From Candidatus Hadarchaeales archaeon (GTDB lineage: Archaea > Hadarchaeota > Hadarchaeia > Hadarchaeales > Hadarchaeaceae), in the NCBI GenBank assembly GCA_038851565.1, contig JAWCKV010000013.1, positions 1 through 22,273 of the forward strand: 22,273 nucleotides of DNA. The letters are read 5' to 3'. The notes under the pieces were generated by a model. The model did no database searches. It worked only from the letters and a program-made list of their open reading frames with translations, and had not been told where the DNA came from. The position numbers and the translations under genes are program-made. The first letter of the stretch is position 1. Each line of letters opens with the position of its first letter. Below are positions 5,671-22,273 of this stretch, piece after piece.

Positions 5671-5675
5671 GGAAA

Positions 5676-7304: not shown

Positions 7305-7330
7305 GTTCCCATCAGTCCATCTGCGAATCC

Positions 7331-7345
7331 TTTTTTAAATATCTG
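7331..7345. promoter_or_regulatory. TATA-like element TTTTTTAAATATCTG, about 30 nt upstream of the 7370 ATG; GGGAGGAG ribosome-binding site at 7358-7365
   Basis: The element is AT-rich within GC-rich DNA and is spaced correctly for an archaeal promoter. A strong SD-like GGAGG lies 5 nt before the ATG. Confidence 0.45.
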
Positions 7346-7369
7346 CCTAGCATAATACGGGAGGAGAAA

Positions 7370-7942: not shown

Positions 7943-7991
7943 GGTCTAAATAGTATGCCTAGATAATGGGACACGTAAGAGATGAGAACGG

Positions 7992-8522: not shown

Positions 8523-9520
8523 TGCCGCAGGTTATCGAGTGGACCGCCTATCAGCCCGGGAAGATAGTGTGGAAGTATCCCGATGAGAACATCACCTGGG
8601 GAGCCCAGCTGATCGTGAAGGAGATGGAGGCGGCGGTTTTCTTCAGGGATGGAAAGGCATACGATGTGTTCGGCCCGGGCAGGCACACGATCACGACCCA
8701 GAACCTGCCCCTCCTGACAAAGGTCCTCACGCGGCTGGCTGGGTATAAGGAAACCCCGTTCAAGGCGATGGTCATATTCGTCTCGACAAAGCAGTTCGAC
8801 GGGAAGTTCGGGCTGAGGGCCCAGACCACGGAGCTCGCGCCCCTGATGGCCCACGGCACGTTCTGGTTCAAGATAGAGAGTCCACAGCTCTTCGTTACGG
8901 AGGTCGTGGGCGGGCAGGGCGCGTATCACACGGTCGACGTGAACGAGTTTCTCCGGGGGTTTGTCAACGAGAAGGTGATCGACGAGCTGTCCCAGTACGA
9001 CCTTGCCACCGTATTCACCCGGCTGGATGAAACCTCGATGACGGTAAAGGCGCACCTCATCGATGCCTTCAGGAGGCTGGGCATCGAGCTGGTCGACATG
9101 AAGTTCGAGGGCATTGACACCGAGCCGCAGTACAGGGAGAGGCTCTTCTGGATAAAGTCCGGCGCTGCGGCTCCCACTGAGGTCCTGAGGATGGAGACGG
9201 TGAAGGAATCCGCCAAGGAGCTGGGAAAGTCGCCGGGGGCCGGGCTCGGAGCGGGGATGATGATAATACCTCCGATGTTTCAGCAGCCCGCGCAGCCGGC
9301 CGGAGCCCCGGCTGCAGCGCTGGTCATCTGTCCCGGCTGCGGCGCTCGAATTCCATCCAGCGCGAAGTTCTGCCCGGAGTGCGGGAGCCAGATCTCCCCA
9401 AGGGGAACGATGAAGTGCCCAAAATGCGGCGAGGAAATTCCTTCCACCTCAAAGTTCTGCCCTGCTTGCGGTAAAAGTCTAACCGGTTCAGGAGGGAGGA
9501 GGGTCACCAGGCAACGGTAG
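8522..9520 (+). CDS. SPFH/Band-7 superfamily protein of the Band_7_1/COG4260 (B. subtilis YdjI-like) type with C-terminal double zinc ribbon
   Basis: 332 aa. VIEWTAYQPGKIVWKYP...FFRDGKAYDVFGPGRHTITTQN...RAQTTE...AHGTFWFKIESP matches the YdjI/COG4260 N-terminal pattern (VVEWEEF...I.YKW; GTF.FKV). A Pro/Ala/Gly linker precedes CPGCGARIPSSAKFCPECGSQI...KCPKCGEEIPSTSKFCPACGKS, which is two CxxC-x9-CxxC ribbons. Confidence 0.8.
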   Translation: MPQVIEWTAYQPGKIVWKYPDENITWGAQLIVKEMEAAVFFRDGKAYDVFGPGRHTITTQNLPLLTKVLTRLAGYKETPFKAMVIFVSTKQFDGKFGLRAQTTELAPLMAHGTFWFKIESPQLFVTEVVGGQGAYHTVDVNEFLRGFVNEKVIDELSQYDLATVFTRLDETSMTVKAHLIDAFRRLGIELVDMKFEGIDTEPQYRERLFWIKSGAAAPTEVLRMETVKESAKELGKSPGAGLGAGMMIIPPMFQQPAQPAGAPAAALVICPGCGARIPSSAKFCPECGSQISPRGTMKCPKCGEEIPSTSKFCPACGKSLTGSGGRRVTRQR

Positions 9521-9561
9521 GAAGTGGTTTCCTGGTAACCGAAAACACAAGAAACAGGCTC

Positions 9562-10080
9562 ATGAGGGCCGGTTTGGCATTTTTCGCGATAGGCCTTGGC
9601 CTGCCGATCGTCACGATTTTGGTGGCCGTGATGGTCGGCTTCGTCGATGAGTCCATAATGCTCAACATCATGAACACGATGGAGAGAAATGCTGGTCTGC
9701 TTGTTCCAGCGTGCGGTGGGCTGGTCTTGTTGGGCGTTGTCCTGATGGCTGCGACCTGGAGCGTGCTTAAGCCGACGTTCCCGAGGGGGCTGGCGAAGAG
9801 GATAAAGGACTACGCTGTTCCCGCGCTGGAGTCGAAGGGCAGAGTTTCCCTTCAGGAGATTGCCGAAAATGTTGGGGCGGATGTGCCGGATGTGGAGTCC
9901 TGTCTGCGCGGGGGTTACGGTTACCAGGGCATGCTTTCCATGGGCTACTTTGATGAGAAAGTTAAACTGGAAGGAGGGTGGCTGGCAAAATCCGTCCCGC
10001 TTAAATGCCCATACTGCGGAATAGACCTGCCCGAGGGAGCTAAAAAGTGCCCCAACTGCGGAGCGGCGGTTAAGAAGTAG
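9562..10080 (+). CDS. two-TM membrane protein with winged-helix-like cytoplasmic segment and C-terminal zinc ribbon
   Basis: 172 aa. Two hydrophobic helices span residues 5-30 and 45-70. GRVSLQEIAENVGADVPDVESCLR is HTH-like. The C-terminus CPYCGIDLPEGAKKCPNCGAAV is a CxxC-x9-CxxC ribbon. Confidence 0.65.
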   Translation: MRAGLAFFAIGLGLPIVTILVAVMVGFVDESIMLNIMNTMERNAGLLVPACGGLVLLGVVLMAATWSVLKPTFPRGLAKRIKDYAVPALESKGRVSLQEIAENVGADVPDVESCLRGGYGYQGMLSMGYFDEKVKLEGGWLAKSVPLKCPYCGIDLPEGAKKCPNCGAAVKK

Positions 10081-10081
10081 A

Positions 10082-11716
10082 TTAACCGGCACGGGCAGGA
10101 ACAAGTTTCTTCGTCATGTAGGGCCCCTCTCTCCGGTAACCAGATCTTCTGTAATAGTTTCTCGTTCCAATGCCAGCGAGCACGGCCACCTTGCTGGCAT
10201 CCAGACATTCTCTCGAAATTCTCTCGGCCTCCTGCAGCAGGCGCTCTCCCCAGCCGCGGTGTTGCCATGCTTCATTTCCGGCTTCGTCGCCCACCTTCAC
10301 GAGCGGACCATATACGTGGAGTTCCCTCACAACTGTAGTTCTCTCGGATGAGATCTCCCGCCTGTGGGCCCCTTGGGAGGGATACCTGAGCCTGAGCAGC
10401 GCGATGATGATGTCGCGTTCGATGTCCTCGAATGACAGAAATATCTCCTCTCCTCCCGATGCCGAATACCTCCTCTCGACAAGTTCGATGTTTTCCTCCC
10501 CTGGCGTGACCCCCTCCCTGTACCGCACGTGCCCCACCTCTCTGCACCTGATGCACCTGCACCTTCTCCCGCTCTCCCTCAGCTTTTTCCGGACGATCTC
10601 CCTGAGGTCGCCGCGCCTGATTCCGCCCGCTATCAGATGTGCGGGTATGTCGCGCTGGATTCTCTGGATCCTGACCCAGGGCGGTGTCATCGCCTTTATC
10701 TCGGCTATCAGTTCAACAAGCTGTTCGAGCGGGTAGGGAGAGTACTCTCCCCTCCCCCACATCCCGTGAAGCTCTGTGTTTGGCATGACCAGGGTCGGAT
10801 ATATCTTGATGGCGTCTGGCCTGAACCTCTCATCCTCAAAGAGGGTCCTGAACATATAGAGGTCCCTTTGCCAGCTGGAGCCGGGGAGGTTCAGCATCAT
10901 GTGTGCCACAATCGCCAGTCCAGAGTCCCTTGCTATCCTCATGGCATCCGCCACATCGTTCACCGTGTGTCCCCTTCCGATCCGGACATAGATCTCGTCA
11001 TCGAGCGCCTGCACCCCCAGCTCCACCCGCGTGGCCCCGAGCCTCAGCATGAGGTCCACGTGGGGCTCCCTGCACCAGTCCGGGCGCGTCTCAAACGTTA
11101 TGTCGCTTATGTGTATGCGTGATCCCTCGGCAGTCCTCATTGCTTCCTCCAGGTCCCCGGAGCGAGAGCCCGTGATGGCGTTCAGGCAGCCTAGCATGAA
11201 CTCCTCCAGGTAGTCCTCGGGATATGCTGTTATCGTCCCTCCGAAGACCACCAGTTCGACCTTGTCCACCTCATGTCCGATCGCCCTGAGTTGCTCGATG
11301 CGTGACCTTACCTGGAGGTATGGATCGAAGTTGTGCTGCAGCGCACGCATGGCGGCCGGCTCCCTTCCCGTATAGCTCTGGGGCGTCCCCTGTGTGGGGC
11401 CGCCCGGGCAGTAGATGCATGGGCGCTCCTTGGGACACGGGTGCGGTCTGGGCATCACGGTTATGACGGAAACTCCTGATATGGAGCGGACGGGCTTCAG
11501 CCTGAGCAGTCCCGCAATTGCCTTCCTCTCCTCATGTCCGGCCGCAGCGAGGATCTCCGAGTTGCGGGGAACCCTGGTGAGGCTAAATTTTCTGCACGCC
11601 TCAATCTTCGCCCTGGCCAGCTCCGCGCGGTCCTTTATTTTACCTGCGGACATGGCCTTCAGTATCTCCTTGCACGCATCCCTGAGGTCCTCCATGGTAC
11701 CAATGATCTTTATCAC
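10082..11716 (-). CDS. elp3: Elp3-family tRNA uridine(34) modification enzyme (radical SAM plus GNAT acetyltransferase domains)
   Basis: 544 aa. It has the radical-SAM cysteine cluster PCPKERPCIYCPGGP...QSYTGREP, a C-terminal GNAT-like domain, and the typical archaeal Elp3 length. The gene converges on the previous gene with a 1-nt spacer. Confidence 0.9.
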   Translation of the reverse strand: MIKIIGTMEDLRDACKEILKAMSAGKIKDRAELARAKIEACRKFSLTRVPRNSEILAAAGHEERKAIAGLLRLKPVRSISGVSVITVMPRPHPCPKERPCIYCPGGPTQGTPQSYTGREPAAMRALQHNFDPYLQVRSRIEQLRAIGHEVDKVELVVFGGTITAYPEDYLEEFMLGCLNAITGSRSGDLEEAMRTAEGSRIHISDITFETRPDWCREPHVDLMLRLGATRVELGVQALDDEIYVRIGRGHTVNDVADAMRIARDSGLAIVAHMMLNLPGSSWQRDLYMFRTLFEDERFRPDAIKIYPTLVMPNTELHGMWGRGEYSPYPLEQLVELIAEIKAMTPPWVRIQRIQRDIPAHLIAGGIRRGDLREIVRKKLRESGRRCRCIRCREVGHVRYREGVTPGEENIELVERRYSASGGEEIFLSFEDIERDIIIALLRLRYPSQGAHRREISSERTTVVRELHVYGPLVKVGDEAGNEAWQHRGWGERLLQEAERISRECLDASKVAVLAGIGTRNYYRRSGYRREGPYMTKKLVPARAG

Positions 11717-11767
11717 GCGGCGATATTAACGGGCTCGGACAACAGTTTAAGTCTCTCTTTCCCATAG

Positions 11768-13951
11768 TTGAACGCTGGTGTGAGCTTGAGGGTGCGCGAT
11801 GTCTGTAAAAAATATGGTTTGCCCGTGAAGATCGCGGAGGTGCTTGAGGCCCGCGGAATAGATGAGCTCTACCCCCCGCAGAGGGAGGCCGTGGGGAGGG
11901 GAGCGCTGGAGGGGAAAAACTTGGTGATGGCCATACCCACAGCTGCGGGCAAGACCCTGGTGGCGGAGCTGTGTATGCTCAGGAGCATCCTCCTGTGGGG
12001 AGGAAGGTGTATATACGTGGTTCCCCTGAGGGCTCTGGCAAGCGAGAAGTGGGAGGATTTCAGGGAGAAGTACGGGGAGCTGGGGATAAGGGTGGGCCTG
12101 AGCACGGGGGACTACGACATCGCTGATCCAAGGCTCGCCGAGTATCACATACTCGTTGCCACGTCAGAGAAGGTGGACTCCCTTCTCCGTCACCGGGCTA
12201 AGTGGCTCGCGGAGGCCACATCGGTGGTTGTGCTCGATGAGGTCCATCTCATCGACGATCCCGGCCGAGGCCCCACCCTGGAGGTTTTGACTGCGAGGCT
12301 CAGGCAGGTCAACCCTAGGCTTCAGATACTCGCGCTCTCTGCGACGATAAGGAACGCGGACGAGCTCGCGGAGTGGCTGGGGGCAGAGCTCGTCAAAAGC
12401 GACTGGAGGCCGGTGCCGCTGAGGAAGGGCGTATGCTGCAGGGGGGAGGTCACATTCGACGATGGCACAGTTCAGAGGGTAAAGGTCGAATCTGGAGATC
12501 CGCTCAGCTCGCTTGCCCTTGAAACGGTGCAGGAGGGAGGACAGGCCCTCGTGTTCGTCAACACGAGAAAATCCGCACAGGCAGCCGCCCAGCTCCTCTC
12601 AGGATATATGGGACCTATTCTCTCTCCGGAGGATCGCGCAAAGCTGCAGGAGGTGGCACAGGGCATAGAGAGGGCACTGGGGGAGCCCACTCGCACCTGC
12701 AGGGAGCTGGCGGAGTGCGTGAGGAAGGGCGTGGCGTTCCATCACGCTGGGCTTCACCACCTGCAGAGGAAGGCGGTGGAGGATTCGTTCAGGAAAAACC
12801 TCCTCAAGGTCGTATGCGCGACGCCAACCCTCGCGATGGGCCTCAACCTACCCTCAAGGAGGACGATTATACGGGATTATCGGCGGTACGTCGAGCCATA
12901 CGGCATGACCTTCATCCCTGTCCTTGAGTTTCATCAGCTCTGCGGACGCGCGGGCAGGCCCCAGTACGACAGGTACGGGGAGGCAGTTGTGATAGCCCAC
13001 AGCAGGGGGGAGATGGAGACGATATTCGAGGAGTTCATAAACGCGGAGCCGGAGCGCATAATTTCGAAGCTTGGCACCGAGCCTGCCCTCAGGTCCCATG
13101 TGCTGGCATCGATCGCAGCGGGCTATGCTGCCACTGAGGAGGATCTCATGGATTTTCTGGGAAAGACGTTCTTCGCGTATCAGTTCAGCGCGGTCAGCGT
13201 GGAGCGCGTGGTCAGCGAGGTCCTGGACTTCCTGATGAGGGAGGACATGGTCAGGAGGGAGGACAGGACGCTGATCGCGACTCGGTTTGGGGAGCTCGTT
13301 TCCAAGCTGTACATAGACCCACTTTCCGGCGTCGTGCTCAGGGACGGCCTCAGGACAGCCGCTGGCGAGAGGCCCAGCGACATGGGGCTTCTTCACCTCA
13401 TTTGTCACACCCCCGACATGTCTCCCCTGTACCTGAGGGAGAGCGAGTACTCCGACATGGAACTGGCCTACCTCAACCTTGCAGATCAGCTGCTCACCCC
13501 GATTCCCGATCCCAGGCGTGAGCCGGATAAGTTTGAGAGCTTTCTGGCGGAGCTGAAGACCGCCCAGATGATCAGGATGTGGATTGAGGAGGTGAGGGAG
13601 GAGGCCATCCACGAGCAGTTTGGCGTGGGAGCCGGAGATGTGAGGAGGATCGCCGAGACAGCGGAGTGGCTTCTCTACGCTGCCCATGAGCTCGCGAGCC
13701 TCTTCAGGTGCCGAGGTGCTCTCGCTCCCCTCAGGAACCTGCGCGAGAGGGTAAGGCACGGTGTGAAGGAGGAGCTGCTTGAGCTTGTGAGCCTGCGCGG
13801 CATAGGGCGCGTGAGGGGAAGGAGCCTGTACAGGGCGGGCTACAGGAGCCTGAAGGACATTGCGCGCGCCTCCGAGGAGGATCTGGCAAGAGTGCCGTAC
13901 ATAGGACCGGAGATAGCGCGGAGCATCAAGCGACAGGCGAGCGGTGTGTAA
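11768..13951 (+). CDS. hel308: Hel308/Hjm (Ski2-like) ATP-dependent DNA helicase
   Basis: It has ELYPPQREA (Q-motif), Walker A AIPTAAGKTLVAE, a DEVH box VVLDEVHLIDD, and a C-terminal HhH domain LVSLRGIGRVRGRSLYRAG...VPYIGPEIARSI. It uses a non-ATG start: TTG 11768 is the longest ORF, but GTG 11780 or TTG 11786 fits the MRVDEL-type homolog N-termini better. Confidence 0.88.
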   Translation: MNAGVSLRVRDVCKKYGLPVKIAEVLEARGIDELYPPQREAVGRGALEGKNLVMAIPTAAGKTLVAELCMLRSILLWGGRCIYVVPLRALASEKWEDFREKYGELGIRVGLSTGDYDIADPRLAEYHILVATSEKVDSLLRHRAKWLAEATSVVVLDEVHLIDDPGRGPTLEVLTARLRQVNPRLQILALSATIRNADELAEWLGAELVKSDWRPVPLRKGVCCRGEVTFDDGTVQRVKVESGDPLSSLALETVQEGGQALVFVNTRKSAQAAAQLLSGYMGPILSPEDRAKLQEVAQGIERALGEPTRTCRELAECVRKGVAFHHAGLHHLQRKAVEDSFRKNLLKVVCATPTLAMGLNLPSRRTIIRDYRRYVEPYGMTFIPVLEFHQLCGRAGRPQYDRYGEAVVIAHSRGEMETIFEEFINAEPERIISKLGTEPALRSHVLASIAAGYAATEEDLMDFLGKTFFAYQFSAVSVERVVSEVLDFLMREDMVRREDRTLIATRFGELVSKLYIDPLSGVVLRDGLRTAAGERPSDMGLLHLICHTPDMSPLYLRESEYSDMELAYLNLADQLLTPIPDPRREPDKFESFLAELKTAQMIRMWIEEVREEAIHEQFGVGAGDVRRIAETAEWLLYAAHELASLFRCRGALAPLRNLRERVRHGVKEELLELVSLRGIGRVRGRSLYRAGYRSLKDIARASEEDLARVPYIGPEIARSIKRQASGV

Positions 13952-14020
13952 CTCCTGAAAGAGGCAGCGCCGGCTACGGTATCGATTTAAGGAGTTTGGG
14001 AGATTGATTATGGGAATTCC

Positions 14021-14599
14021 TTGTGCCCTGAGGCTCGCGTGAGAGGAAAGAGAGGGCCCGTGGAGTTGGATGGGTATTTTACGCCCGGGAGGCTTGTTTT
14101 CGTCGCCCTGATTCCCGCAAGGAAATACCCTGAGTTCATGAACAGCATAGCGAGGTTTATCTCAAGTAGGTGGAATAAGATATGCATGGTTTCACTGACC
14201 AAGCCCTATTCAACTCTGGTTGACTCCTTCAAACGGTTGGGCATTGACCCGAAAAAGTTCTTCATCGTGGACGCAATTTCTCAGACTGCAGGAGGAGCAG
14301 AGAGGGCGGAGAACGTCGTCTTCGTCTCGAGTCCAGCTGCGATAACGGAGCTGGGCATCAAGGTAGGAGAGACTCTGAGGAGGGAGAAGCCGGACTTTCT
14401 CATTCTTGACTCCATATCTGTCATGCTGATATACGTGCCGGAGCAGGAGGTTCTGAAGTTCATACACATGCTTGTTTCCAGATTCCGCGCCAGCGGAATA
14501 TGCTCGCTTTTCACGGTTCTTCTGGAGGACACTGAAACGAGGGTGGTGAGGAACATATGCATGTTCGCAGATGCGGTTATAGACCTGGGGGAGGGGTGA
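14021..14599 (+). CDS. KaiC/RecA-superfamily paralog lacking the Walker A P-loop (probable pseudo-ATPase partner of the downstream KaiC-like protein)
   Basis: The C-terminal two-thirds align with the adjacent KaiC-like protein (FLILDSISVMLIYV vs FIVIDSISAIESAF; SLFTVLLEDTE vs SFLITETEDAP). At the P-loop position the sequence reads VFVALIPARKYPEF instead of GxxGxGKT. The start is uncertain: TTG 14021, GTG 14039/14060 or ATG 14138. Confidence 0.6.
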   Translation: MCPEARVRGKRGPVELDGYFTPGRLVFVALIPARKYPEFMNSIARFISSRWNKICMVSLTKPYSTLVDSFKRLGIDPKKFFIVDAISQTAGGAERAENVVFVSSPAAITELGIKVGETLRREKPDFLILDSISVMLIYVPEQEVLKFIHMLVSRFRASGICSLFTVLLEDTETRVVRNICMFADAVIDLGEG

Positions 14600-14600
14600 A

Positions 14601-14610
14601 TATATATTAT
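14601..14610. promoter_or_regulatory. TATA-like element TATATATTAT about 40 nt upstream of the KaiC-like gene; GGAGGG ribosome-binding site at 14633-14638
   Basis: This is an AT-rich island immediately after the upstream stop codon. An SD-like GGAGGG lies 8 nt before the ATG at 14647. Confidence 0.45.
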
Positions 14611-14646
14611 CTTAGTGAGGCAACTCTATCATGGAGGGCGGAATAG

Positions 14647-15468
14647 ATGCCCAGGGCCCCCAAGAAGGCCAAGAAGGTGTCTCAGGAACCTGAGTTCATA
14701 AAGATCGGAATACCCGGTTTCGACGATCTTTTTGCAAGGGGCATCCCGCGAGGAACAAACATCCTCATAGCGGGAGGTCCGGGGACTGGAAAGACGATAT
14801 TCTGTCTTCAGGCCCTCTACAACTCCGCGAGGGCCGGCCACGATTGCGTTTACATCACAATGGAGGAATCCGTGGAGAGATTGAGGGCACACATGGAGGA
14901 TTTTGGGTGGTCCACGAAGGTGGTGGAGCAGGGCAGAGGCAGGATTAAGATGAGGGTAGACGATGCAGGGCATATATTCGTGATGAAACATGATCCAATA
15001 CGCGTTGCGAGGTCCGTCGAGGCCATGTTGGCGAAGGTCACGGGGGACCTCTCGATAGACATAGAGGCGATTCCAGGGCTCGTCCCGAGGGGGTTGCGCC
15101 CGTACTTCATCGTTATAGATTCAATTTCTGCCATCGAGTCTGCCTTCGTCGGGAGACCAGAGAGCTACAGGATATACATAGAGCAGCTATTCAGGATGCT
15201 GGAGGAGCTCGGGAGCACATCCTTCCTCATAACGGAGACCGAGGACGCCCCGGTGAGGTTTTCTCGCTCAGGCGTTGAGGAGTTCCTCGCCGATGGGGTG
15301 ATAGTCCTGTATAACATGAAGGTCGGCGACACGAGGGTCAGGGCGATAGAGATTCTGAAGTTCAGGGGAGCCAAGCACGAGCGGAAACTGGTTCCCATGG
15401 AGATCACCGATAAGGGAATTGCGATATTCCCGAAGGAGAGGGTCTACGGAGTGGAGGGACTGAGATGA
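14647..15468 (+). CDS. single-domain KaiC-like RecA-superfamily ATPase (archaeal signal-transduction KaiC homolog)
   Basis: 273 aa. It has the motif GIPGFDDLFARGIPRGTNILIAGGPGTGKT (Walker A), Walker B FIVIDSIS, and the KaiC-type C-terminus ILKFRGAKHERKLVPMEITDKGIAIFP. Its ATGA overlaps the next gene. Confidence 0.9.
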   Translation: MPRAPKKAKKVSQEPEFIKIGIPGFDDLFARGIPRGTNILIAGGPGTGKTIFCLQALYNSARAGHDCVYITMEESVERLRAHMEDFGWSTKVVEQGRGRIKMRVDDAGHIFVMKHDPIRVARSVEAMLAKVTGDLSIDIEAIPGLVPRGLRPYFIVIDSISAIESAFVGRPESYRIYIEQLFRMLEELGSTSFLITETEDAPVRFSRSGVEEFLADGVIVLYNMKVGDTRVRAIEILKFRGAKHERKLVPMEITDKGIAIFPKERVYGVEGLR

Positions 15469-17831
15469 GGGAGTTCAAAGTTGGGCTGAGCACACGCAGG
15501 GCTTTCAAGATCGCTATCCTGCCGGGTCTCATCGCGGTTCTCCTCGGAGCATCGGCGGGATTTGCAGGCGCGGGAAACTGGTCGGTGGCATACGACACGC
15601 CCGAGGGGGGTGTGTACTGCCTTGCGGTATACAATGGGAAGCTTTTCGCGGGCACCGGTACGGATGGCAAAATATACGTTTACGATGGAAATAGTTGGGA
15701 GGTTAGCTACGATTCTTATCAGGAGACCATCATGGCGTTTGCGGTCTACGATGGCAAGCTGTATGCGGCCGGAGAGCCTAATGAATCCATATTTGTTTAC
15801 GACGGGGAGGAATGGACCGAGATGGAGGAGGTCCCCGGGGATCCGGTGTTATGCTTTGGGATATACGGGGGAAAACTTTACGCGGGCACGCAGAGCGGCG
15901 TTTTCGTTTATGAAGGCGGCACCTGGTCTCAGGTTCTGGAATACGGAATGGCGTCATTCGCGGTATACAATAACAAGCTCTACGCAGGGTCATGCGATTC
16001 AGGGGCGGTTTACTCTTTTGACGGGAACTATTGGGTCTTGGTCCACGATCTGATCCAACCCAACGCCATACTATCCTTGACGACGTACCGGGACAGGCTT
16101 TACATCGGCACAAGCGACAGCGGAGCAATATACGTCTCCAACGGGGAGACCTATGCCTTGAGCCATGATGTGCTGGAGCCGTACGTTTATTCGCTGGCGG
16201 TCTATTCTGACAAGCTTTACGCTGGGACAGGGCCCACCGGGTGCATATACAGCTATAACGGAACGGTGTGGGAGCTTAACTTCGACACGCCCGAATCCGA
16301 CATCTTCTCGCTTGCGGTTTACGGAACGAGGCTGTACGCCGGAACCTGGCAGGAGGGGAAGATCTACTGTCTCACGGATTTTGACTTCTCTCTGAGCGCT
16401 TCTTCGGACAACCTTGAGCTCGCACAGAATTCAGTTTCAACAACCGTTTCGGTCTCTCTGGTGTCTCAGGTGACGGAGACCGTAACGCTGAGCGGGGCGT
16501 GGGTGGGAAACGCGCCGACCGGGGTGAGTGCAATGTTCAGCATGACCTCAGGCACTCCTCCCTTCACAAGCACCCTTACTTTCACCAAGAGCGCCAGCGC
16601 GGGAGGTGGTAACTTCACCTACAGGGTCACGGCGTCAGGCGGCGGTCTGACACGAACAAAAGACATCTCCATAAACGTGATCGCGCCTCCATCTTCTCCA
16701 TCGCTGCTCTCCCCGGAGAACGGTGTCACGATAGACACCATCACCCCAACGTTTGACTGGTCCGATGTCTCAGGAACGGATTCCTACACCCTTGAGGTCG
16801 CCACGGACAACGCGTTCACCAACGTTATACTGACAAAGATCACGGCCGAATCAATCGCCACGCTTTCACAGAGCGAGGCGCTGTCATTCGGAACTACCTA
16901 TTACTGGAGAGTCAGGGGATCGAACTCAGCCGGACAGGGGGGCTGGTCGTCGGTGTGGAAATTCATCCCGCTGCTCACAGCTCCAAAGGTATCTGGTTTC
17001 ATGATGGCCGGAGGTGCAACTTTTACAAAGTCCACAACGATCCAGCTTACAATCACCGCCCAGAACGCATCACACATGTCTTTTTCCACCGACATGGCTA
17101 CGTGGACTGACTGGGAGCCATATCAAAGCAACATACCTTACACGCTCTCCGGTCCTGATGGTCTGAAGACTGTATATGTAAGGGTGAAGGACAGTGGGGG
17201 AAACGTGAGCCCGACCATGGCGGGCTCAATAACGCTGGACCAGACTTCTCCGCTGTCACAAAAGGACCTTGTTGGAGACCTCGGTCCTGAAGGATACAGG
17301 GGCTCCGTTGTCATAACTCTCTCAGCAATCGATGCGACCTCTGGTGTAGATAGGATAGTCTACAGAGTTGACGGAGGCGAGTGGAAATCGGCCAGCGCGC
17401 GCGAGGTATCATTTCCGATAACCTCCGGAGGCACACACACCGTGGAGTACTACTCCGTGGACATGGCCGGCAACGAGGAAACGGTCAGGTCATTTGAAGT
17501 AAAGGTACACGTCCCGGGAGCCATCCCAGAATACGTCTGGGTCATACCCGGTGTGGCGGCTGTGGCCGGAGTGGCGGTGTTTTATGCCACAAGAGGCATG
17601 AGGCTCAGGCGCAGGCTTGCCTCGATAAAAATCGAGAAGGAGGAACTCGCAAAAATGAAAAAGGAGGCGGAGACGAAGTTCTACAAGGAGGCCACGATGT
17701 CGCGCGAGACCTTTGACTCGCTCATGGCCGAGTACAGAAGGAAAATGGCTGAGCTGGAAAAGGAGGAAGGGCTGCTCCGCAGAAAAATAGGAAAAAAGGC
17801 AAAAAGCGCCGGGATGAGTGGTAAACGATGA
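15465..17831 (+). CDS. type-I membrane surface protein: signal peptide, 7-blade Kelch-like beta-propeller, four Ig-like/FN3-like domains, TM helix, cytoplasmic coiled-coil tail
   Basis: 788 aa. The N-terminal hydrophobic signal is AFKIAILPGLIAVLLGASAGFAGA. Seven repeats of about 45 aa follow the pattern (S/A)xAVYxxKLYAGTxxxGxIYVYDGxxW. The tandem beta-sandwich-like modules of about 95 aa include YYWRVRGSNSAGQGGWSSVWKF (FN3-like) and ITLSAIDATSGVDRIVYRVDGGEW...GTHTVEYYSVDMAGNEE (Big-like). The TM helix is VWVIPGVAAVAGVAVFYA, followed by the charged tail RLRRRLASIKIEKEELAKMKKEAE... Confidence 0.85.
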   Translation: MREFKVGLSTRRAFKIAILPGLIAVLLGASAGFAGAGNWSVAYDTPEGGVYCLAVYNGKLFAGTGTDGKIYVYDGNSWEVSYDSYQETIMAFAVYDGKLYAAGEPNESIFVYDGEEWTEMEEVPGDPVLCFGIYGGKLYAGTQSGVFVYEGGTWSQVLEYGMASFAVYNNKLYAGSCDSGAVYSFDGNYWVLVHDLIQPNAILSLTTYRDRLYIGTSDSGAIYVSNGETYALSHDVLEPYVYSLAVYSDKLYAGTGPTGCIYSYNGTVWELNFDTPESDIFSLAVYGTRLYAGTWQEGKIYCLTDFDFSLSASSDNLELAQNSVSTTVSVSLVSQVTETVTLSGAWVGNAPTGVSAMFSMTSGTPPFTSTLTFTKSASAGGGNFTYRVTASGGGLTRTKDISINVIAPPSSPSLLSPENGVTIDTITPTFDWSDVSGTDSYTLEVATDNAFTNVILTKITAESIATLSQSEALSFGTTYYWRVRGSNSAGQGGWSSVWKFIPLLTAPKVSGFMMAGGATFTKSTTIQLTITAQNASHMSFSTDMATWTDWEPYQSNIPYTLSGPDGLKTVYVRVKDSGGNVSPTMAGSITLDQTSPLSQKDLVGDLGPEGYRGSVVITLSAIDATSGVDRIVYRVDGGEWKSASAREVSFPITSGGTHTVEYYSVDMAGNEETVRSFEVKVHVPGAIPEYVWVIPGVAAVAGVAVFYATRGMRLRRRLASIKIEKEELAKMKKEAETKFYKEATMSRETFDSLMAEYRRKMAELEKEEGLLRRKIGKKAKSAGMSGKR
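15600..16390 (+). repeat. seven tandem protein-level repeats of about 45 aa (Kelch-type propeller blades) within the surface-protein gene
   Basis: Reading the translation gives the repeats CLAVYNGKLFAGTGTDGKIYVYDGNSW, FAVYDGKLYAAGEPNESIFVYDGEEW, FGIYGGKLYAGTQSGVFVYEGGTW, FAVYNNKLYAGSCDSGAVYSFDGNYW, LTTYRDRLYIGTSDSGAIYVSNGETY, LAVYSDKLYAGTGPTGCIYSYNGTVW and LAVYGTRLYAGTWQEGKIYCLTDF. DNA-level identity between units is only moderate. Confidence 0.75.
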
Positions 17832-18196
17832 AGCGGATCATGATAGTCGACGACGAGCCAGGCGTGAGGACATCGGTCAGGTTCCTTCTGGAGGCCAACG
17901 GCTTCAGCGTCGTTGAGGCCTCGGGAGGTCATCAGGCTCTGGAGATCCTGAAGAGGGAGAAGGTTGATCTTGTCCTGATAGACTTCCTCATGCCTGAAAT
18001 GAGCGGAAGGGAACTGGCCGAGAGGATAAGGGGGGATCCGAAGCTGAGGGACCTCAAGCTCGTCTTCCTCACAGTTGCCACTCTGGGCGAGGCCGGAAAG
18101 GAGGAATTGAAGAAGCTCAACATACTTGATTACATCACGAAACCTTACGACAACCGGGACTTAGTAAGCAGAATCACCAGGGTGCTGAGCAAGTAG
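17828..18196 (+). CDS. stand-alone CheY-like response-regulator receiver domain
   Basis: 122 aa with MIVDDEP (acidic pocket), LVLIDFLMP (phospho-acceptor Asp), FLT and TKP, the canonical receiver residues. Its ATGA overlaps the upstream gene. Confidence 0.9.
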   Translation: MKRIMIVDDEPGVRTSVRFLLEANGFSVVEASGGHQALEILKREKVDLVLIDFLMPEMSGRELAERIRGDPKLRDLKLVFLTVATLGEAGKEELKKLNILDYITKPYDNRDLVSRITRVLSK

Positions 18197-18231
18197 GACC
18201 GTCCCAAACCCATCGCGGTTCCGCACACTGC

Positions 18232-18264
18232 GACTATTTTTTATCTCAAGGAGATATACATAAA
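18232..18264 (+). promoter_or_regulatory. oligo-T tract (TTTTTT at 18237-18242; candidate archaeal terminator for the receiver gene and/or TATA-like box) followed by ATATACATAAAA upstream of the FIST gene
   Basis: This is the only AT-rich stretch in the 73-nt gap. The T6 run is followed by an AAGGAG SD-like motif and an ATG at 18270. Confidence 0.35.
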
Positions 18265-18269
18265 ACTGA

Positions 18270-19613
18270 ATGTCGGGCCGCATCAAGTTGATTGTTGTCG
18301 TGGCTCTCTGCGCAATCGTCGCCGCACTGGCCGTCTCAGTTTCAGCCCCTCCTCTGTCCACCATCCAGACAATTCCTCCCCCTGAGAGGCTGCAGGGGTC
18401 GCGCGGAGTCTTCTCCTGTGCCGGTTATGGCTGGAGCACAAATGGAGACCCATTCGAGGCGGTCAGTGAGGCTGCTGAAAAGGTAAGGGAGGTCATGGGC
18501 GAAAACGAGCCGGGGTTCCTGTTTCTTTTCTGCTCATCCAGATACGATGAAGACGCCGTTCTCCAGGAGACCCGGCGCCAGTTCCCTGGAGCAAAGGTAT
18601 ATGGAGGGACATCATCGCTTGGGGTCATGACTTCAGCCGGCTTCCACCTCTCGGACAACGGCTCTCTGGTCATTATGGGAATCCACTCCTCCAGGATCAC
18701 CTTAGGAGTGGGACATGCCAGTTTCGATGAGCTCCCGCCTGAGAACGCGGGGGAGGTCGCGGTGAGGAGGGCGATGGAGGACGCGGGAAGAGAAGGAGAA
18801 ATGCCGGCAATCATCCTTGTGACGATGGCGCCGGGAAATGAGGAGGCCGTGCTGAGCGGCATAGCGGGCGTAGTCGGTGAAAACGTTCCGGTGTTCGGAG
18901 GGAGCTCCGCAGATGACGATCTCAGCGGAAAGTGGAAGCAGTTTGCGAACGACACGGTTCTGAGCAACGGAGTCGCACTGGCTGCCGTGTTCACGGACCT
19001 GTGCACCTGCTATCACTACGCCACCGTGTACGAGGTCACGGAACGCGAAGGCACGATCACGAGCGCCCAGGGCAGGACCATATATGAAATCGACGGACTG
19101 CCAGCAGCCGAGGTCTATAACTCCTGGACCGGGGGACTCATCAGCGAAAAGCTGGAGAACGGCGGGTCGATAATAGTGGAGGCATCTTACTGGCCGCTGG
19201 CAAAGGTGGTGAGAGGCCCTATCGGAAGAACGTTCCGGGTGTCGATGCATCCGGTATACGTGGAGAACGGTGCGATAACGGTCTATGCCGAAGTGGAAAA
19301 CGGCATGAAAGTATCACTTCTGCACGGCAGCTGGGAGCTTCTGCTGAATCAGTCGGGCAGGACCGCGAAGAAGGCGTCAGAGATGTGTACGGGCCGTGGG
19401 ATCTTCGCGATATTCACCCACTGTGCGGGAACGATGATGGCGATACCCGAGGACGAAAGGCCGAAGATACCGCTGCTGGTTGCGCAGGGTATCGGCGAGA
19501 CGCCGTTCATCGGAGCCTTCACCTTTGGAGAGCAGGGCTTCGTGGAGGACGTTGGAAACGTCCACGGAAATCTGACTGACTGGATATTATTCTTCTCAGA
19601 GGAGGTGCCCTGA
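18270..19613 (+). CDS. FIST-domain (FIST_N plus FIST_C) sensor protein with N-terminal signal peptide or signal anchor
   Basis: 447 aa. The N-terminal hydrophobic segment is [27 protein letters not shown]-like features are [12 protein letters not shown]...[21 protein letters not shown]-like features are [16 protein letters not shown]...[28 protein letters not shown]. Confidence 0.8.
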
Positions 19614-19614
19614 C

Positions 19615-21123
19615 TTGGCCGGGCTTCGGGTTCATTGGCCCAGAAGTATCGTTTACAGGATAGGCCTCGTCGGGCTTCTGCTGACGGCTCTCGGCTCTGC
19701 GCTCGGAGGATATCTGTACACTGAGTTCCAAACCCGCATCATGGAGCGTGAGCTCACCGATAGGACCCTTACCATAGCCGAAGTTGCGGCCAGGAGCATA
19801 AACACAGGTTACCTCTCGGGCTCGTGGCCCTTCGAGACGCTTTCCTCGGTGGAAGGCTGCGAGGATGTGGAGTTCTGGTGGATCGTCAGGCCCGACGGGA
19901 CCATACAGATTGCAAGCGACGAAACGCTCTGGGGGCACAGGATTGAGAATTTCACCCCGCCGGAGGAGGAAAAGGTCCGGATACGCGACTACGTTTTTGG
20001 CAGCAGCGAAATTAAACTCATAAGCTACCCGCTGAGCATAAAGGACAACGGAGAGCCATGGTGCTTCTGCCTTGGCATGTCCAAGGACTTCGCTGCGAGA
20101 GCCGCTGAGAGCGTTGCGGCCTCTGCCGCCACCGTTTTCACGATCGTGTCATGTCTGCTGGGCACCATCATCGTCTTTTGGTCCCGCAGGTTCGCGCGTC
20201 CCCTGGAGAAGATAAAGCTGGCGATGAAGAGCGCCTCTGAGGGCAACCTCGCCGTCAGCACAGGCGTTACCTCCCAGGACGAGGTTGGGGAGCTCGCGTC
20301 CTCGTGCGACAGGATGATAGCTGGGCTAAAGGAGTACGTGGAGAGGGCGAAACGTGATTCCCTTGAGCTGGGAAGGCGGCAGGCCGAGCTGGAGAGGCTG
20401 AGGTCAATCGACAAGATGAAGGATGATTTTCTCTTCATGACCTCGCACGGGATGAAGACCCCTCTGACTCCGGTGCTTTCCCTGGCGCAGCAGATGCTGG
20501 ACGGCGGGCTCGGCCAGATCACCGAAAGGCAGAGGGAGGCCCTGAAAATAATAGTTCGGGAAGCACAGCGTTTGCAAGTAGATATAGAGGATATCCTGAC
20601 CGCAGCCAGGATGGAGACGGGAGAGCTGGGACTATACAGGGAGCCCGTTCACCTGAAGGAGCTGATCGAGGACACGGTGAAACAGATGGAAACGGCCGCC
20701 TCCCAGAGGAAAATAACGGTGACCGCAGATGTGGGTGAGCTACCGGTGCTCGAGATAGACAGAAGGAGAGTACTCCAAGCTCTCAACCATCTGATCGACA
20801 ACGCCATAAAGTACTCACCTGAGGGGAGCAGGGTTGAAGTTATGGCCAGGGTTGAGGGAGACCACGTCCTGATCAGCGTCCGGGATCAGGGAAAGGGGAT
20901 CTCCAAAGAGGACATGCCCAAGCTCTTCACGAAGTTCTTCCGTGCAGACCCGACGATCGTTGGCTCCGGGCTCGGGCTCTACATAGTTAAGAAAATAGTT
21001 GAGGCGCACGGCGGGAGGATATGGTGCGAGAGCGAGCCGGGCAGAGGCTCAACGTTTTCGTTCACCCTGCCGCTCGGCAGAAACTCCAATCCGTCGTCGG
21101 AAAAACAGGCGTCCGTTGAATAA
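19615..21123 (+). CDS. sensor histidine kinase: two TM helices flanking an extracytoplasmic domain of about 150 aa, HAMP-like linker, DHp and HATPase_c
   Basis: 502 aa. TM1 is [20 protein letters not shown] and TM2 is [18 protein letters not shown]. The H-box is [18 protein letters not shown], the N-box is [12 protein letters not shown], the G1 box is DQGKGI and the G2 box is [21 protein letters not shown]. It starts at TTG 19615, right after the FIST stop codon, with a GAGGAGG RBS about 10 nt upstream. Confidence 0.88.
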
Positions 21124-21160
21124 ACTTTTATGCAAAGAGGCTAACGTATCGGCTGATGTG

Positions 21161-22273
21161 ATGATGGAATCAAGAGGGGTAAGCGTTCCAATCGTAGTTG
21201 CCGCAATACTCATTGTCGCAATCGCACTCGGTGCCGGGTACTTTCTGATTTTTTCCGTCAAGCCGGCTGCGGAAAATCAGCCTGGTCCGCCAGTTCCCGA
21301 CAATCAGCCCGGAGGCCAGGGACCATCTGGTCCGCAGGTCGGTCCGGGCGGGATAACGGTCGAGTTCACCGGGGCCGCATACAGGACTACCGGCGGAGAA
21401 ACTTCAGGCTGGTTCCACACGGGTCAGGATGCGGATATCATGCTCTCGGGGATAGACTTCAACAACACCGGCGGGCCTCTCCTGTTTAATCACCCGTCTG
21501 GGATAGCAACCGACGGTCAGCGGCTTTTCCTCGCCGACACATTCAACAACAGGGTGCTCGTCTGGAACACCCTGCCTGCCGGAAACGTGCCGCCAGACCT
21601 CGTGCTCGGGCAACCGGACTTCACGTCAAATAACCCCGGCACCGGCAGAAACCAGCTCAACTGGCCTTTCGGCGTTGCCACGGACGGGACACATTTAGTG
21701 GTTGCAGACGTCAACAACGCCCGCATTCTCATATGGAACAGCATGCCTGCCCAGAACGCTGCCCCTGCGGACATCGTGCTCGAGGGCGGAGGGTCATACT
21801 GGACACCACGGGGGGAGAGCGATCTGCCGGGAGGGTCCTGGTGCGTGTGGACCAACGGCCAAAAGCTGGTGGTGAGCAACACATGGGCAGGAGGATCTGT
21901 ACTGATCTGGAACACATTTCCCACGCGGGACAACCAGCGGGCGGATATAGTGCTCACTGGAGGTGGAGACATGGGGACGCCAAGGCACATAACCAGCGAT
22001 GGCAACTGTCTGATAGTTGGAGATCACAACGCCAGCGTAGAGGGAGAACACAGCCACGGATCCTTCTTCTGGAGCACATTCCCCACCACCGATGATCAAC
22101 CCTATGACTTCTTCATGTCAAAGGGATTCGGCTGGCTGCGGGGAGCATTTCTAAGCGATGGGAAACTCCTGCTCCTCGGTGGAGAACGCCCGGAGCTGAG
22201 GATATGGAACTCGTTTCCGCAGAGCAAAGATGATGAGGCAGACACGGTGCTTGAGCTCAGAAGCGCCCAGCTC
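21161..22273 (+). CDS. signal-anchored extracytoplasmic NHL-repeat beta-propeller protein; 5' part only, continues beyond the window end
   Basis: This ORF is not in the supplied track because it has no in-window stop. I translated it by hand as MMESRGVSVPIVVAAILIVAIALGAGYFLIF (TM), then a Pro/Gly-rich linker, then repeats FNHPSGIATDGQRLFLADTFNNRVLVWN, LNWPFGVATDGTHLVVADVNNARILIWN, VLIWNTFPTRDNQRADIVL, LRIWNSFPQSKDDEADTVL. This NHL-like pattern is P.G.A.D...L.VAD..N.R...W. Confidence 0.7.
   Translation, partial: MMESRGVSVPIVVAAILIVAIALGAGYFLIFSVKPAAENQPGPPVPDNQPGGQGPSGPQVGPGGITVEFTGAAYRTTGGETSGWFHTGQDADIMLSGIDFNNTGGPLLFNHPSGIATDGQRLFLADTFNNRVLVWNTLPAGNVPPDLVLGQPDFTSNNPGTGRNQLNWPFGVATDGTHLVVADVNNARILIWNSMPAQNAAPADIVLEGGGSYWTPRGESDLPGGSWCVWTNGQKLVVSNTWAGGSVLIWNTFPTRDNQRADIVLTGGGDMGTPRHITSDGNCLIVGDHNASVEGEHSHGSFFWSTFPTTDDQPYDFFMSKGFGWLRGAFLSDGKLLLLGGERPELRIWNSFPQSKDDEADTVLELRSAQL

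What the first reader, a model, noticed from the sequence alone, without database searches (positions are those of the whole stretch)
14021..22273. Co-directional cluster coupling a KaiC-like ATPase pair to a multi-component cell-surface sensing apparatus
Seven consecutive + strand genes are tightly packed with ATGA overlaps at 15465 and 17828, a TGA-c-TTG junction at 19613/19615, and only short gaps elsewhere. They encode a Walker-A-less KaiC paralog, an intact KaiC-like ATPase, a 788-aa extracellular Kelch-propeller/Ig-FN3 protein with a cytoplasmic coiled-coil tail, a CheY-like receiver, a signal-anchored FIST protein, a sensor histidine kinase with an extracytoplasmic domain of about 150 aa, and a signal-anchored NHL propeller. 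So four different extracytoplasmic ligand-binding or protein-binding modules sit beside three cytoplasmic signalling components. Archaeal KaiC-like ATPases have been proposed as signal-transduction hubs. I do not recognise this particular wiring to two propeller surface proteins plus FIST plus a two-component pair as a described system. It could be an outside-in surface-recognition pathway for attachment, cell-cell contact or polymer sensing.
Basis: partly seen in the sequence, partly recalled or inferred. Interest (0 to 1): 0.7.

Follow-up and report, generated by a model that had tools for sequence, protein, structure and literature searches.

The report
KaiC-coupled surface receptor signalling cluster
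In Hadarchaeota archaea, an active and an inactive KaiC-type ATPase sit next to a cell-surface protein with a conserved intracellular tail, usually beside a two-component system, which makes this a plausible, untested route for outside signals to reach an archaeal KaiC signalling hub.

Summary
Seven co-directional genes lie at the stated coordinates, the ATGA overlaps and the TGA-c-TTG junction are real, and the domain calls are right. One correction: the propeller is a generic seven-bladed fold, not Kelch.

The window is a whole contig of a Hadarchaeales MAG. Six of the seven genes are conserved neighbours:
- Three other lineages carry all six genes (iKaiC, KaiC, surface protein, receiver, FIST, histidine kinase). 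In two of them the iKaiC gene has moved to the far end of the cluster.
- Across 23 informative loci, a KaiC gene of this subfamily lies a short distance upstream (0-3.5 kb) of the surface-protein gene in 22.

The constant element is a roughly 70-residue cytoplasmic helical tail after the membrane span. No Pfam or NCBIfam model matches it. It occurs on proteins with many different ectodomains. An orthologous stand-alone receiver and a histidine kinase with variable input recur nearby in several arrangements. FIST occurs in 4 loci. The NHL gene occurs only here.

I read this as a lineage-specific KaiC/iKaiC signalling module with a receptor-like membrane partner, integrated with a NosP-like RR-FIST-HK unit. 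KaiC-receiver linkage is already known from fusions, so this is a new variant of a known kind. The mechanism is inferred, not shown.

The parts
14021..14599 (+). g1: inactivated KaiC paralogue (iKaiC, DUF7504 type), 192 aa. It has no Walker A and no catalytic Glu pair, but keeps a Walker-B-like hhhhDSIS.
   Evidence: Pfam DUF7504 1.8e-9 and KaiC 3e-6. The motif alignment with 15 orthologues shows the same losses in all. Orthologues lie in 15 loci next to the KaiC.
14647..15468 (+). g2: single-domain KaiC-like ATPase, 273 aa, with intact Walker A (GGPGTGKT), EE and Walker B. A subfamily-specific insertion spans about residues 90-150.
   Evidence: Pfam KaiC 3.3e-55. PDB sequence hits to KaiC CI and to PH0186/PH0284. 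AF2 pLDDT 84, and the best Foldseek hit is 2zts (PH0186). 40 invariant columns in 38 homologues.
15465..17831 (+). g3: type-I membrane protein, 788 aa. It has a signal peptide, a seven-bladed beta-propeller (residues 38-304), four Ig/FN3-like beta-sandwich domains (308-682), a TM helix and a cytoplasmic tail.
17592..17828 (+). Conserved cytoplasmic tail of g3 (residues 710-788): two long helices with the motif RRL..I..EK.EL..LK.EA..KYFK.GSISR.TYD.L...Y..R.AELEKEE. This is the element that tracks KaiC.
   Evidence: Invariant columns in A1. No Pfam family matches. The tail profile hits 27 ORFs in fetched loci. There are 42 cluster representatives among 1.84e9 proteins, always C-terminal after a TM and on diverse ectodomains.
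17828..18196 (+). g4: stand-alone CheY-like receiver, 122 aa, with all phospho-acceptor pocket residues and no output domain. Its start overlaps the g3 stop (ATGA).
   Evidence: Pfam Response_reg 1.6e-25. Orthologues at 52-69% identity (at least 130 bits) sit closest to the KaiC/iKaiC genes in 9 loci, in three different arrangements.
18270..19613 (+). g5: membrane-anchored or secreted FIST protein, 447 aa. The FIST_N + FIST_C domains are predicted to lie outside the cell.
   Evidence: Pfam FIST 1.8e-29 and FIST_C 2.3e-14. Weak NosP match, 63 bits against a cutoff of 450. The N-terminal hydrophobic segment is conserved in the L005 and L006 orthologues. Orthologues occur only in L098, L005 and L006.
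19615..21123 (+). g6: sensor histidine kinase, 502 aa: TM, an extracytoplasmic loop of about 130 aa, TM, HAMP, HisKA, HATPase_c. It has a TTG start with a GGAGGTG Shine-Dalgarno sequence.
   Evidence: Pfam, hydropathy, sequence, and the same 502-aa product in NCBI. Full-length orthologues occur in L098, L005 and L006. At other loci only the kinase core is shared.
21161..22273 (+). g7: signal-anchored NHL-repeat protein, cut by the end of the contig. It is adjacent but not shown to belong to the module.
   Evidence: Pfam NHL 2e-7, 31 bits. N-terminal hydrophobic segment. No homologue in any of the related loci.
18197..18269 (+). 73-nt spacer between g4 and g5, with a stem-loop plus TATTTTTTAT. 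It could be an oligo-T terminator or a TATA-like promoter element, so it may be a sub-operon boundary.
   Evidence: In L006 the FIST TTG start directly abuts the RR stop, so the boundary is not conserved.

Best explanation
This is a conserved, Hadarchaeota-restricted signalling module built around a single-domain KaiC-like ATPase (g2) and a catalytically dead paralogue (g1).

Shown:
- The KaiC gene lies on the same strand upstream of, and is often translationally coupled to, a gene for a type-I membrane protein.
- The ectodomain of that protein varies, but its roughly 70-residue cytoplasmic helical tail is constant.
- One orthologous stand-alone receiver (g4) and a histidine kinase with variable input recur next to these genes.
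- In this variant the kinase (g6) comes with a membrane-anchored FIST protein (g5), in the RR-FIST-HK order of nosRPK operons.

Inferred mechanism:
- The tail of g3 docks the KaiC/iKaiC assembly at the membrane, so that binding or clustering of the ectodomain (propeller plus Ig stalk, here most like glycan-sensing ectodomains) changes KaiC ATPase or oligomeric state.
- In parallel, FIST acts outside the cell as an auxiliary sensor that tunes g6 autophosphorylation.
- g6 phosphorylates the output-less receiver g4.
- Phospho-g4 acts on KaiC/iKaiC, as the published REC-(i)KaiC fusions imply.
- KaiC therefore integrates two extracellular inputs. The downstream output is not encoded in the cluster.

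The NHL gene is probably a bystander.
For: Neighbourhood conservation:
- iKaiC-KaiC-g3-RR-FIST-HK occurs in L098 at 68% identity.
- KaiC-g3-RR-FIST-HK-iKaiC occurs in L005 and L006, so the two-component genes sit between KaiC and iKaiC.
- iKaiC-KaiC-g3 occurs with a divergent or convergent orthologous RR and an HK in L001, L002 and L089.
- KaiC-iKaiC-HK-RR occurs without g3 in L100.
- RR-HK-RR-iKaiC lies divergent from KaiC plus a 424-aa tail-bearing protein in L101.
- KaiC, iKaiC (minus strand) and a 961-aa tail protein occur in L102.
- Tally: KaiC on the same strand upstream of the tail-bearing gene (0-3.5 kb, directly adjacent in most; one copy is only a fragment) in 22 of 23 informative loci.

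Tail:
- 13 invariant columns within 75 residues.
- Modelled as two helices, pLDDT 70-87.
- Found on proteins of 375-1420 aa with MG2, Big_13, YtkA, NPCBM_assoc, DUF2341, LamG, LTD or beta-helix ectodomains.

Other support:
- Catalytic motifs are intact in KaiC and lost in iKaiC across all orthologues.
- The ATGA overlaps suggest coupled translation.
- Precedents: iKaiC-REC and KaiC-REC fusions (PMC5847659); NosP binds and controls its neighbouring HK (PMC12570481); the KaiC-like CirA and a two-component system act in one pathway in Haloferax (PMC13464002).
- Ectodomain fold hits include Bacteroides hybrid two-component sensor domains BT4673 and BT4663.
Against: - No physical interaction was tested. 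Multimer modelling was not available.
- Gene order alone cannot give the direction of signalling.
- Some loci with ample flanks have KaiC plus the tail protein but no RR or HK within reach (L013, L014). L003 and L004 also lack them, but their upstream flank is short.
- L011 keeps a conserved tail with no adjacent KaiC.
- Propeller/Ig ectodomains are equally typical of adhesins.
- The fold matches to sensor ectodomains have low TM-scores (0.2-0.3) and are generic for seven-bladed propellers.
- No ligand is predictable for g3, FIST or the HK loop.
- The key comparative paper (Makarova et al. 2017, mBio) could not be read here, so part of this may already be catalogued.
- All sequences come from MAGs or metagenomes, and there are no expression data.
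Confidence: 0.55

Rival explanations
1. Inside-out or structural reading. g3-family proteins are adhesins or envelope components. The KaiC/iKaiC pair, under two-component control, regulates their display, clustering or turnover from the cytoplasmic side, rather than receiving a signal from them.
For: - Ectodomains are of adhesin or carbohydrate-binding types and vary widely, as expected for surface proteins under diversifying selection.
- Other large Ig-type surface proteins lie nearby in L005, L006, L100 and L101.
- KaiC-like ArlH is a known accessory of a surface machine (NCBIfam ArlH/FlaH weak hits).
- In Haloferax, loss of the two-component regulator QarA changes expression of surface beta-propeller proteins.
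Against: - The tail is short, with no enzymatic or sorting motif.
- No secretion or assembly genes (ArlI/J-like, sortase, glycosylation) lie in any of the loci.
- The same gene-order data fit both directions, so this reading is not excluded.
Confidence: 0.22
2. Juxtaposition of independent units: an iKaiC-KaiC-g3 unit, a NosP-like RR-FIST-HK two-component unit and an NHL surface protein happen to be adjacent and do not work together.
For: - The core triad occurs without any two-component genes in L003, L004, L013 and L014.
- A 73-nt spacer with a T-run separates g4 from g5.
- RR-FIST-HK is a self-sufficient operon type in bacteria.
- The NHL gene is unique to this contig.
Against: - The receiver overlaps the g3 stop codon, not the FIST-HK side.
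- The same orthologous receiver is the RR nearest to KaiC/iKaiC in 9 loci with three different arrangements.
- In L005 and L006 the iKaiC gene follows the HK, so the two-component genes are nested inside the KaiC pair.
- KaiC-iKaiC-HK-RR recurs without g3.
- REC-(i)KaiC fusions exist.
- For the NHL gene alone, this rival is probably right.
Confidence: 0.15
3. A timing or clock-like KaiC system, or an anti-phage or mobile-element cassette.
For: - g2 is homologous to KaiC CI.
- KaiC clock output uses an HK/RR pair (SasA/RpaA; established knowledge).
- There are weak PADLOC hits to generic ATPase, REC and HATPase models.
Against: - g2 is single-domain and scores 133 bits against the 408-bit cutoff of the KaiC equivalog.
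- There are no KaiA or KaiB genes.
- PADLOC gives no system-specific hit.
- The flanks are housekeeping genes and syntenic with L008.
- There are no tRNA genes or Rfam RNA families in the window, no flanking repeats in the repeat scan of 13900-22273, and no integrase or transposase domain among the window ORFs scanned against Pfam.
Confidence: 0.03

Closest known systems
Archaeal KaiC-like ATPase signalling hubs with inactivated paralogues (Makarova, Galperin & Koonin 2017, as cited in PMC5847659), including iKaiC-REC, KaiC-REC, REC-DUF835 and MEDS-REC fusions
   Same: A single-domain KaiC-like ATPase is paired with an inactivated KaiC-family protein, and both are linked to receiver domains and histidine kinases. 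Here the linkage is by operon rather than by fusion.
   Different: - The partner here is a type-I membrane protein family defined by a conserved cytoplasmic tail that no Pfam or NCBIfam model matches.
- The family is confined to Hadarchaeota as far as the scans reach.
- I could not read the 2017 paper, so whether it lists this neighbourhood is untested.
NosP-NosK-NosR (nosRPK) systems of bacteria: FIST auxiliary sensor, histidine kinase, response regulator
   Same: The gene order is the same: RR, FIST, HK. The FIST protein is a separate polypeptide next to its kinase, and NosP is shown to bind and control its kinase (PMC12570481).
   Different: - Here FIST carries an N-terminal anchor and should lie outside the cell.
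- The kinase has two TM helices and an extracytoplasmic loop.
- The RR has no output domain.
- The NosP equivalog score is far below cutoff (63 against 450).
- Heme or NO binding is unknown.
Cyanobacterial KaiC with its two-component input and output (SasA/RpaA, CikA)
   Same: A KaiC-fold hexameric ATPase communicates with a histidine kinase and a response regulator.
   Different: - g2 has a single domain, not two.
- There is no KaiA or KaiB.
- The HK has no KaiB-like domain.
- There is no evidence of oscillation.
Periplasmic sensor domains of Bacteroides hybrid two-component systems (BT4663, BT4673)
   Different: - Those have two propellers and a kinase/receiver/AraC output fused in the same chain.
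- g3 has one propeller, four beta-sandwich domains and only a 75-residue tail.
- The similarity is at the level of a generic seven-bladed propeller.
Haloferax volcanii CirA (KaiC-like) and the QarA two-component pathway; ArlH of the archaellum
   Same: Single-domain archaeal KaiC-like ATPases with experimentally supported regulatory roles. CirA and a two-component system affect the same behaviour.
   Different: - Those genes are not clustered with each other or with a tail-bearing membrane protein.
- Orthology to g2 was not established.

Membership tests
KaiC/RecA-superfamily ATPase (Pfam PF06745) | Walker A, catalytic Glu pair, Walker B, KaiC-CI-like fold | tested here: met
   g2 has GGPGTGKT, MEES and IDSIS. 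Pfam 187 bits. The motifs are conserved in orthologues. Foldseek best hits are PH0186 and KaiC CI.
Bona fide circadian KaiC | Two tandem KaiC domains, equivalog-level score, KaiB/KaiA partners | tested here: not met
   g2 is a single domain of 273 aa. It scores 133.5 bits against the 408 cutoff of NF006799 and 108.6 against 546 for TIGR02655. No Kai partner lies in the cluster.
Inactivated KaiC (iKaiC; DUF7504/DUF7090) | KaiC-family homology with loss of the P-loop and catalytic residues | tested here: met
   g1 matches DUF7504 at 38.8 bits (cutoff 27) and KaiC at 27.1 bits. Walker A and EE are replaced in all 15 orthologues.
Two-component system | HisKA with phospho-acceptor His plus HATPase_c in the kinase; receiver with the acidic pocket, Thr and Lys | tested here: met
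   g6 has HAMP, HisKA and HATPase_c with SHGMKTP. g4 matches Response_reg at 89.9 bits with D8/D9/D52/T82/K105 (sequence). Phosphotransfer itself was not tested.
NosP-type FIST sensor | FIST_N + FIST_C protein encoded beside its kinase | tested here: met
   Pfam FIST 103.5 bits and FIST_C 54.1 bits. It is 1 nt from the HK start. The same pairing occurs in L098, L005 and L006.
NosP-type FIST sensor | Equivalog-level similarity to NosP; cytoplasmic heme protein | tested here: not met
   NF041558 scores 63.2 bits against a cutoff of 450. The conserved N-terminal hydrophobic anchor predicts an extracytoplasmic location. Heme binding cannot be tested with these tools.
Kelch beta-propeller | Kelch repeat profile match; usually six blades | tested here: not met
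NHL-repeat propeller | NHL repeat profile match above gathering score; complete six-bladed domain | tested here: inconclusive
   PF01436 scores 31.2 bits against a cutoff of 20, but the gene runs off the contig, so the blade count and C-terminus are unknown.
Hybrid two-component sensor (Bacteroides HTCS) | Propeller/Y_Y_Y ectodomain fused to HisKA-HATPase-REC-AraC in one chain | tested here: not met
   g3 has only a 75-residue helical tail after the TM.
Known anti-phage defence systems (PADLOC) | System-specific protein models | tested here: not met
   Only weak generic hits, at most 33 bits.

The most novel reading that the evidence does not exclude
The conserved C-terminal tail defines a previously unnamed family of archaeal single-pass receptors. 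They would signal by directly recruiting and regulating a KaiC/iKaiC ATPase complex. This resembles a receptor plus associated cytoplasmic enzyme more than a bacterial sensor kinase. Ectodomains would be interchangeable, and a dedicated stand-alone receiver would couple the same KaiC hub to histidine kinases.
Probability: 0.3. Interest if true: 0.75.

Novelty: new variant of a known kind. Interest (0 to 1): 0.5.

Why it matters
KaiC-like ATPases are the most expanded putative signalling proteins in archaea, yet almost nothing is known about what feeds signals into them. This module offers a concrete, testable candidate for a transmembrane input. It is a small tail motif on surface proteins with swappable ectodomains, always encoded next to one KaiC subfamily and its dead paralogue, with a dedicated receiver linking it to classical two-component sensing.

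If the tail-KaiC contact is real, it would give a minimal system (tail peptide, KaiC, iKaiC, receiver, kinase) for dissecting how archaeal KaiC hubs work. It would also say something about the surface sensing of Hadarchaeota, an uncultured subsurface lineage.

If the contact is not real, the cluster is still a well-conserved lineage-specific neighbourhood worth an annotation.

Tried and rejected
- **Makarova et al. 2017 (mBio)** could not be retrieved by DOI, PMC id or title words. Comparison with it rests on citing papers and on memory.
- **Profile search of the 69-aa tail with the search for homologous proteins** returned one fragment and not even the query's own family. This is probably a failure of the word prefilter. 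The exhaustive phmmer search replaced it.
- **Genome-collection scan with the full-length g3 alignment** was dominated by unrelated Ig/FN3 proteins of bacteria and Thermoplasmatota. None of these carries the tail or a neighbouring KaiC.
- **Kelch assignment** was rejected.
- **Pfam family for the tail**: nothing credible even at E up to 10 (DUF724 at 19 bits, coiled-coil noise). From memory the motif looks SHOCT-like, but it was not detected.
- **Defence system** was rejected.
- **RNA elements and tRNAs**: none.
- **DNA repeats in the region** only reflect the propeller blades.
- **The sigma-70 promoter scan** is not informative for an archaeon.
- **Multimer modelling of tail-KaiC** is not possible with the tools.
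- **Neighbourhoods of the more distant tail variants** (P0253, P0260, P0261, P0270, P0273, P0278) could not be fetched, because the look-ups were exhausted.

Full report
**What is there**

The window is an entire 22,273-bp contig of a 'Candidatus Hadarchaeales archaeon' MAG. g3 is NCBI MEM2874861.1 and the histidine kinase is MEM2874864.1.

Positions 1-13951 carry housekeeping genes: an HMGL-like enzyme, an aminotransferase, SAICAR synthase, PEPCK, AsnC, a GPN-loop GTPase, an SPFH/zinc-ribbon protein, Elp3 and a Hel308-type helicase. There are no tRNA genes and no Rfam families.

- The two ATGA overlaps (15465-15468 and 17828-17831) and the TGA-c-TTG junction (19611-19617) were read directly.
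- A GGAGGTG lies 8 nt before the TTG start of the kinase. NCBI calls the same 502-aa product.

**Domain calls**

| Gene | Result |
|---|---|
| g1 | Matches DUF7504 and, partially, KaiC. Lacks Walker A and the catalytic Glu pair. |
| g2 | Intact single-domain KaiC-like ATPase: Pfam 3e-55; closest solved relatives are KaiC CI and Pyrococcus PH0186/PH0284; AF2 pLDDT 84. |
| g3 | Signal peptide, seven-bladed propeller (38-304), four beta-sandwich domains (308-682), TM helix, two long cytoplasmic helices (701-741, 747-782). AF2 with 11 orthologues, pLDDT 82. |
| g4 | Canonical stand-alone receiver. |
| g5 | FIST_N + FIST_C behind an N-terminal hydrophobic anchor. |
| g6 | TM, loop of about 130 aa, TM, HAMP, HisKA, HATPase_c. 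|
| g7 | N-terminal anchor, Pro/Gly linker and NHL repeats; cut by the contig end. |

**Neighbourhood conservation**

Full-length g3 orthologues (39-85% identity) exist only in Hadarchaeota MAGs and related metagenome contigs.

| Locus | Arrangement |
|---|---|
| L098 (68% identity) | iKaiC-KaiC-g3-RR-FIST-HK, the same order as the window |
| L005 and L006/L007 (50-54%) | KaiC-g3-RR-FIST-HK-iKaiC; the dead paralogue has moved to the far end, so the two-component genes are nested within the KaiC pair |
| L001 | iKaiC-KaiC-g3, with the orthologous receiver divergent directly upstream and an SBP-fused kinase beyond |
| L002 | The triad followed by a convergent HK and the orthologous receiver |
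| L089 | Two paralogous modules on one contig |
| L003, L004 | The triad, then RuBisCO, with no two-component genes in the available flanks |
| L013, L014 | KaiC plus a g3 relative with another N-terminal domain, and no iKaiC or two-component genes in reach |
| L016, L096 | HK-KaiC, then a minus-strand KaiC-like gene with a degenerate P-loop, then a g3 relative |
| L011 | Syntenic with L002 (TIM, MFS) but lacks iKaiC, KaiC and the propeller part of g3, as if all three were deleted together |

**The tail**

In the alignment of 11 orthologues, the 75 cytoplasmic residues contain 13 invariant columns. No Pfam or NCBIfam model covers them.

- A profile of the tail finds 27 ORFs in the fetched loci.
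- An exhaustive phmmer search of 1.84 billion cluster representatives finds only 42 proteins.
- In nearly all full-length hits the tail sits at or near the extreme C-terminus, directly after a hydrophobic segment. The proteins are 375-1420 aa long.
- Their ectodomains differ: MG2, Ig_Rha78A_N, Big_13, YtkA, NPCBM_assoc, DUF2341, Laminin_G_3, LTD and beta-helix.
- Tail-bearing proteins with other ectodomains also follow a KaiC of the g2 subfamily: L101 (424 aa), the second module in L089 (429 aa) and L102 (961 aa, with a minus-strand iKaiC in between).

**Tallies over non-redundant loci**

| Feature | Count |
|---|---|
| KaiC on the same strand upstream of the tail-protein gene (directly adjacent in most; up to 3.5 kb away in L016 and L096; a fragment in L015) | 22 of 23 informative loci |
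| DUF7504-type iKaiC | 15 loci, plus 3 with another Walker-A-less KaiC paralogue |
| g4-orthologous receiver (at least 130 bits) | 9 loci |
| Histidine kinase | 12 loci |
| FIST | 4 loci |
| NHL | the window only |

The g2 subfamily is larger than the g3 family (more than 120 proteins above 50% identity). It also occurs as KaiC-iKaiC-HK-RR without a tail protein (L100).

**Interpretation**

Shown:
- A conserved module made of KaiC, at least one inactivated KaiC and a tail-bearing type-I membrane protein.
- One receiver orthologue and kinases of variable input (membrane-loop, SBP-fused, multi-TM, cytoplasmic) recurrently attached to it.

Inferred:
- The tail docks the KaiC/iKaiC complex.
- The receiver, which has no output domain, acts on KaiC/iKaiC.
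- KaiC integrates a g3-dependent input and a kinase-dependent input.

The inference draws on:
- the translational coupling;
- the pattern of a variable ectodomain on a constant tail, which is typical of receptors;
- published REC-(i)KaiC fusions (PMC5847659);
- the demonstrated NosP-to-kinase control in nosRPK operons, which have the same RR-FIST-HK order (PMC12570481);
- genetic evidence that a KaiC-like protein and a two-component system act in one pathway in Haloferax (PMC13464002).

In this variant FIST is predicted to be extracytoplasmic, because its N-terminal anchor is conserved. It would therefore meet the kinase's outer loop rather than its cytoplasmic part.

**Rivals**

- *Inside-out control of an adhesin by KaiC.* Gene order cannot separate this from the receptor model.
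- *Mere juxtaposition.* Several results argue against it: the receiver overlaps g3, the two-component genes are nested between KaiC and iKaiC in L005 and L006, and the same receiver orthologue recurs in three arrangements. For the NHL gene alone, juxtaposition is the likeliest reading.
- *Clock or defence.* Both lack their defining features.

**Novelty**

The general idea is published: KaiC and iKaiC act as archaeal signalling hubs linked to receivers. So is the RR-FIST-HK operon type.

What appears new:
- the tail-defined membrane protein family and its strict linkage to one KaiC subfamily in Hadarchaeota;
- the dedicated receiver;
- the externally anchored FIST.

I could not read Makarova et al. 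2017, so prior description of a similar neighbourhood cannot be excluded. I rate this a new variant of a known kind, of moderate interest. The mechanism is untested.

Noticed in passing
window 18270-18350; L005 8466-8620; L006 7118-7280: The FIST protein and its orthologues all start with a hydrophobic anchor or signal segment, which would place a FIST domain outside the cell. The JGI gene calls start downstream and hide this. In L006 the TTG start directly abuts the receiver's stop codon.
   Followed up: partly
L011 8005-11428, compared with L002 1726-7334: In the same TIM-MFS synteny, L011 has only a 505-aa g3 remnant (Ig domains, TM, tail), with no propeller, KaiC or iKaiC. It looks like a joint deletion, but it could also be a MAG assembly artefact.
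   Followed up: partly
L089 4946-8941 and 14681-18328: One 18-kb metagenome contig carries two paralogous KaiC / tail-protein / iKaiC modules. One has a full propeller protein and the other a 429-aa protein that lacks the propeller.
   Followed up: partly
L004 4526-5254; L089 9180-9947; L016 8303-9049; L096 2735-3535: Additional KaiC-like ORFs with degenerate or missing Walker A motifs lie next to g3 relatives, either downstream of g3 or on the minus strand between KaiC and g3. Some modules therefore hold two different inactivated paralogues.
   Followed up: partly
window 7256-10080: A block of four ORFs lies between the GPN-loop GTPase and Elp3: two with no Pfam match, an SPFH/Band7 protein with a double zinc ribbon, and a zinc-ribbon protein. 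The block is absent from the otherwise syntenic contig L008.
   Followed up: no
window 14914-15096 (g2 residues about 90-150): The g2 KaiC subfamily has a conserved insertion relative to KaiC CI. It is modelled as a three-stranded beta-meander, a helix and a disordered loop. It could be a partner-binding surface.
   Followed up: no
window 14600-14609 and 18236-18245: AT-rich elements (ATATATATTA and TATTTTTTAT) lie 25-40 nt upstream of the g2 and g5 starts. They could be archaeal TATA boxes, and the second could instead be an oligo-T terminator. This hints at internal promoters within the cluster.
   Followed up: no
P0253, P0260, P0261, P0270, P0273, P0278: More distant proteins carry a related motif (..KYF/Y..G.MSR..Y....Y..R.AE.E), some with two matched stretches. 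The tail may belong to a wider, undescribed family beyond Hadarchaeota. Their genomic context could not be fetched.
   Followed up: no
L100 3226-5595: Two tandem HisKA_7TM + DUF835 genes lie just upstream of a g2-type KaiC-iKaiC-HK-RR cassette. DUF835 is classed as an iKaiC domain in PMC5847659.
   Followed up: no
L015 5762-11512: In this Hadarchaeota MAG the KaiC is reduced to a 103-aa C-terminal ORF fused behind the HK reading frame, and the g3 relative is split into two ORFs. This is either a decaying copy or assembly errors.
   Followed up: no
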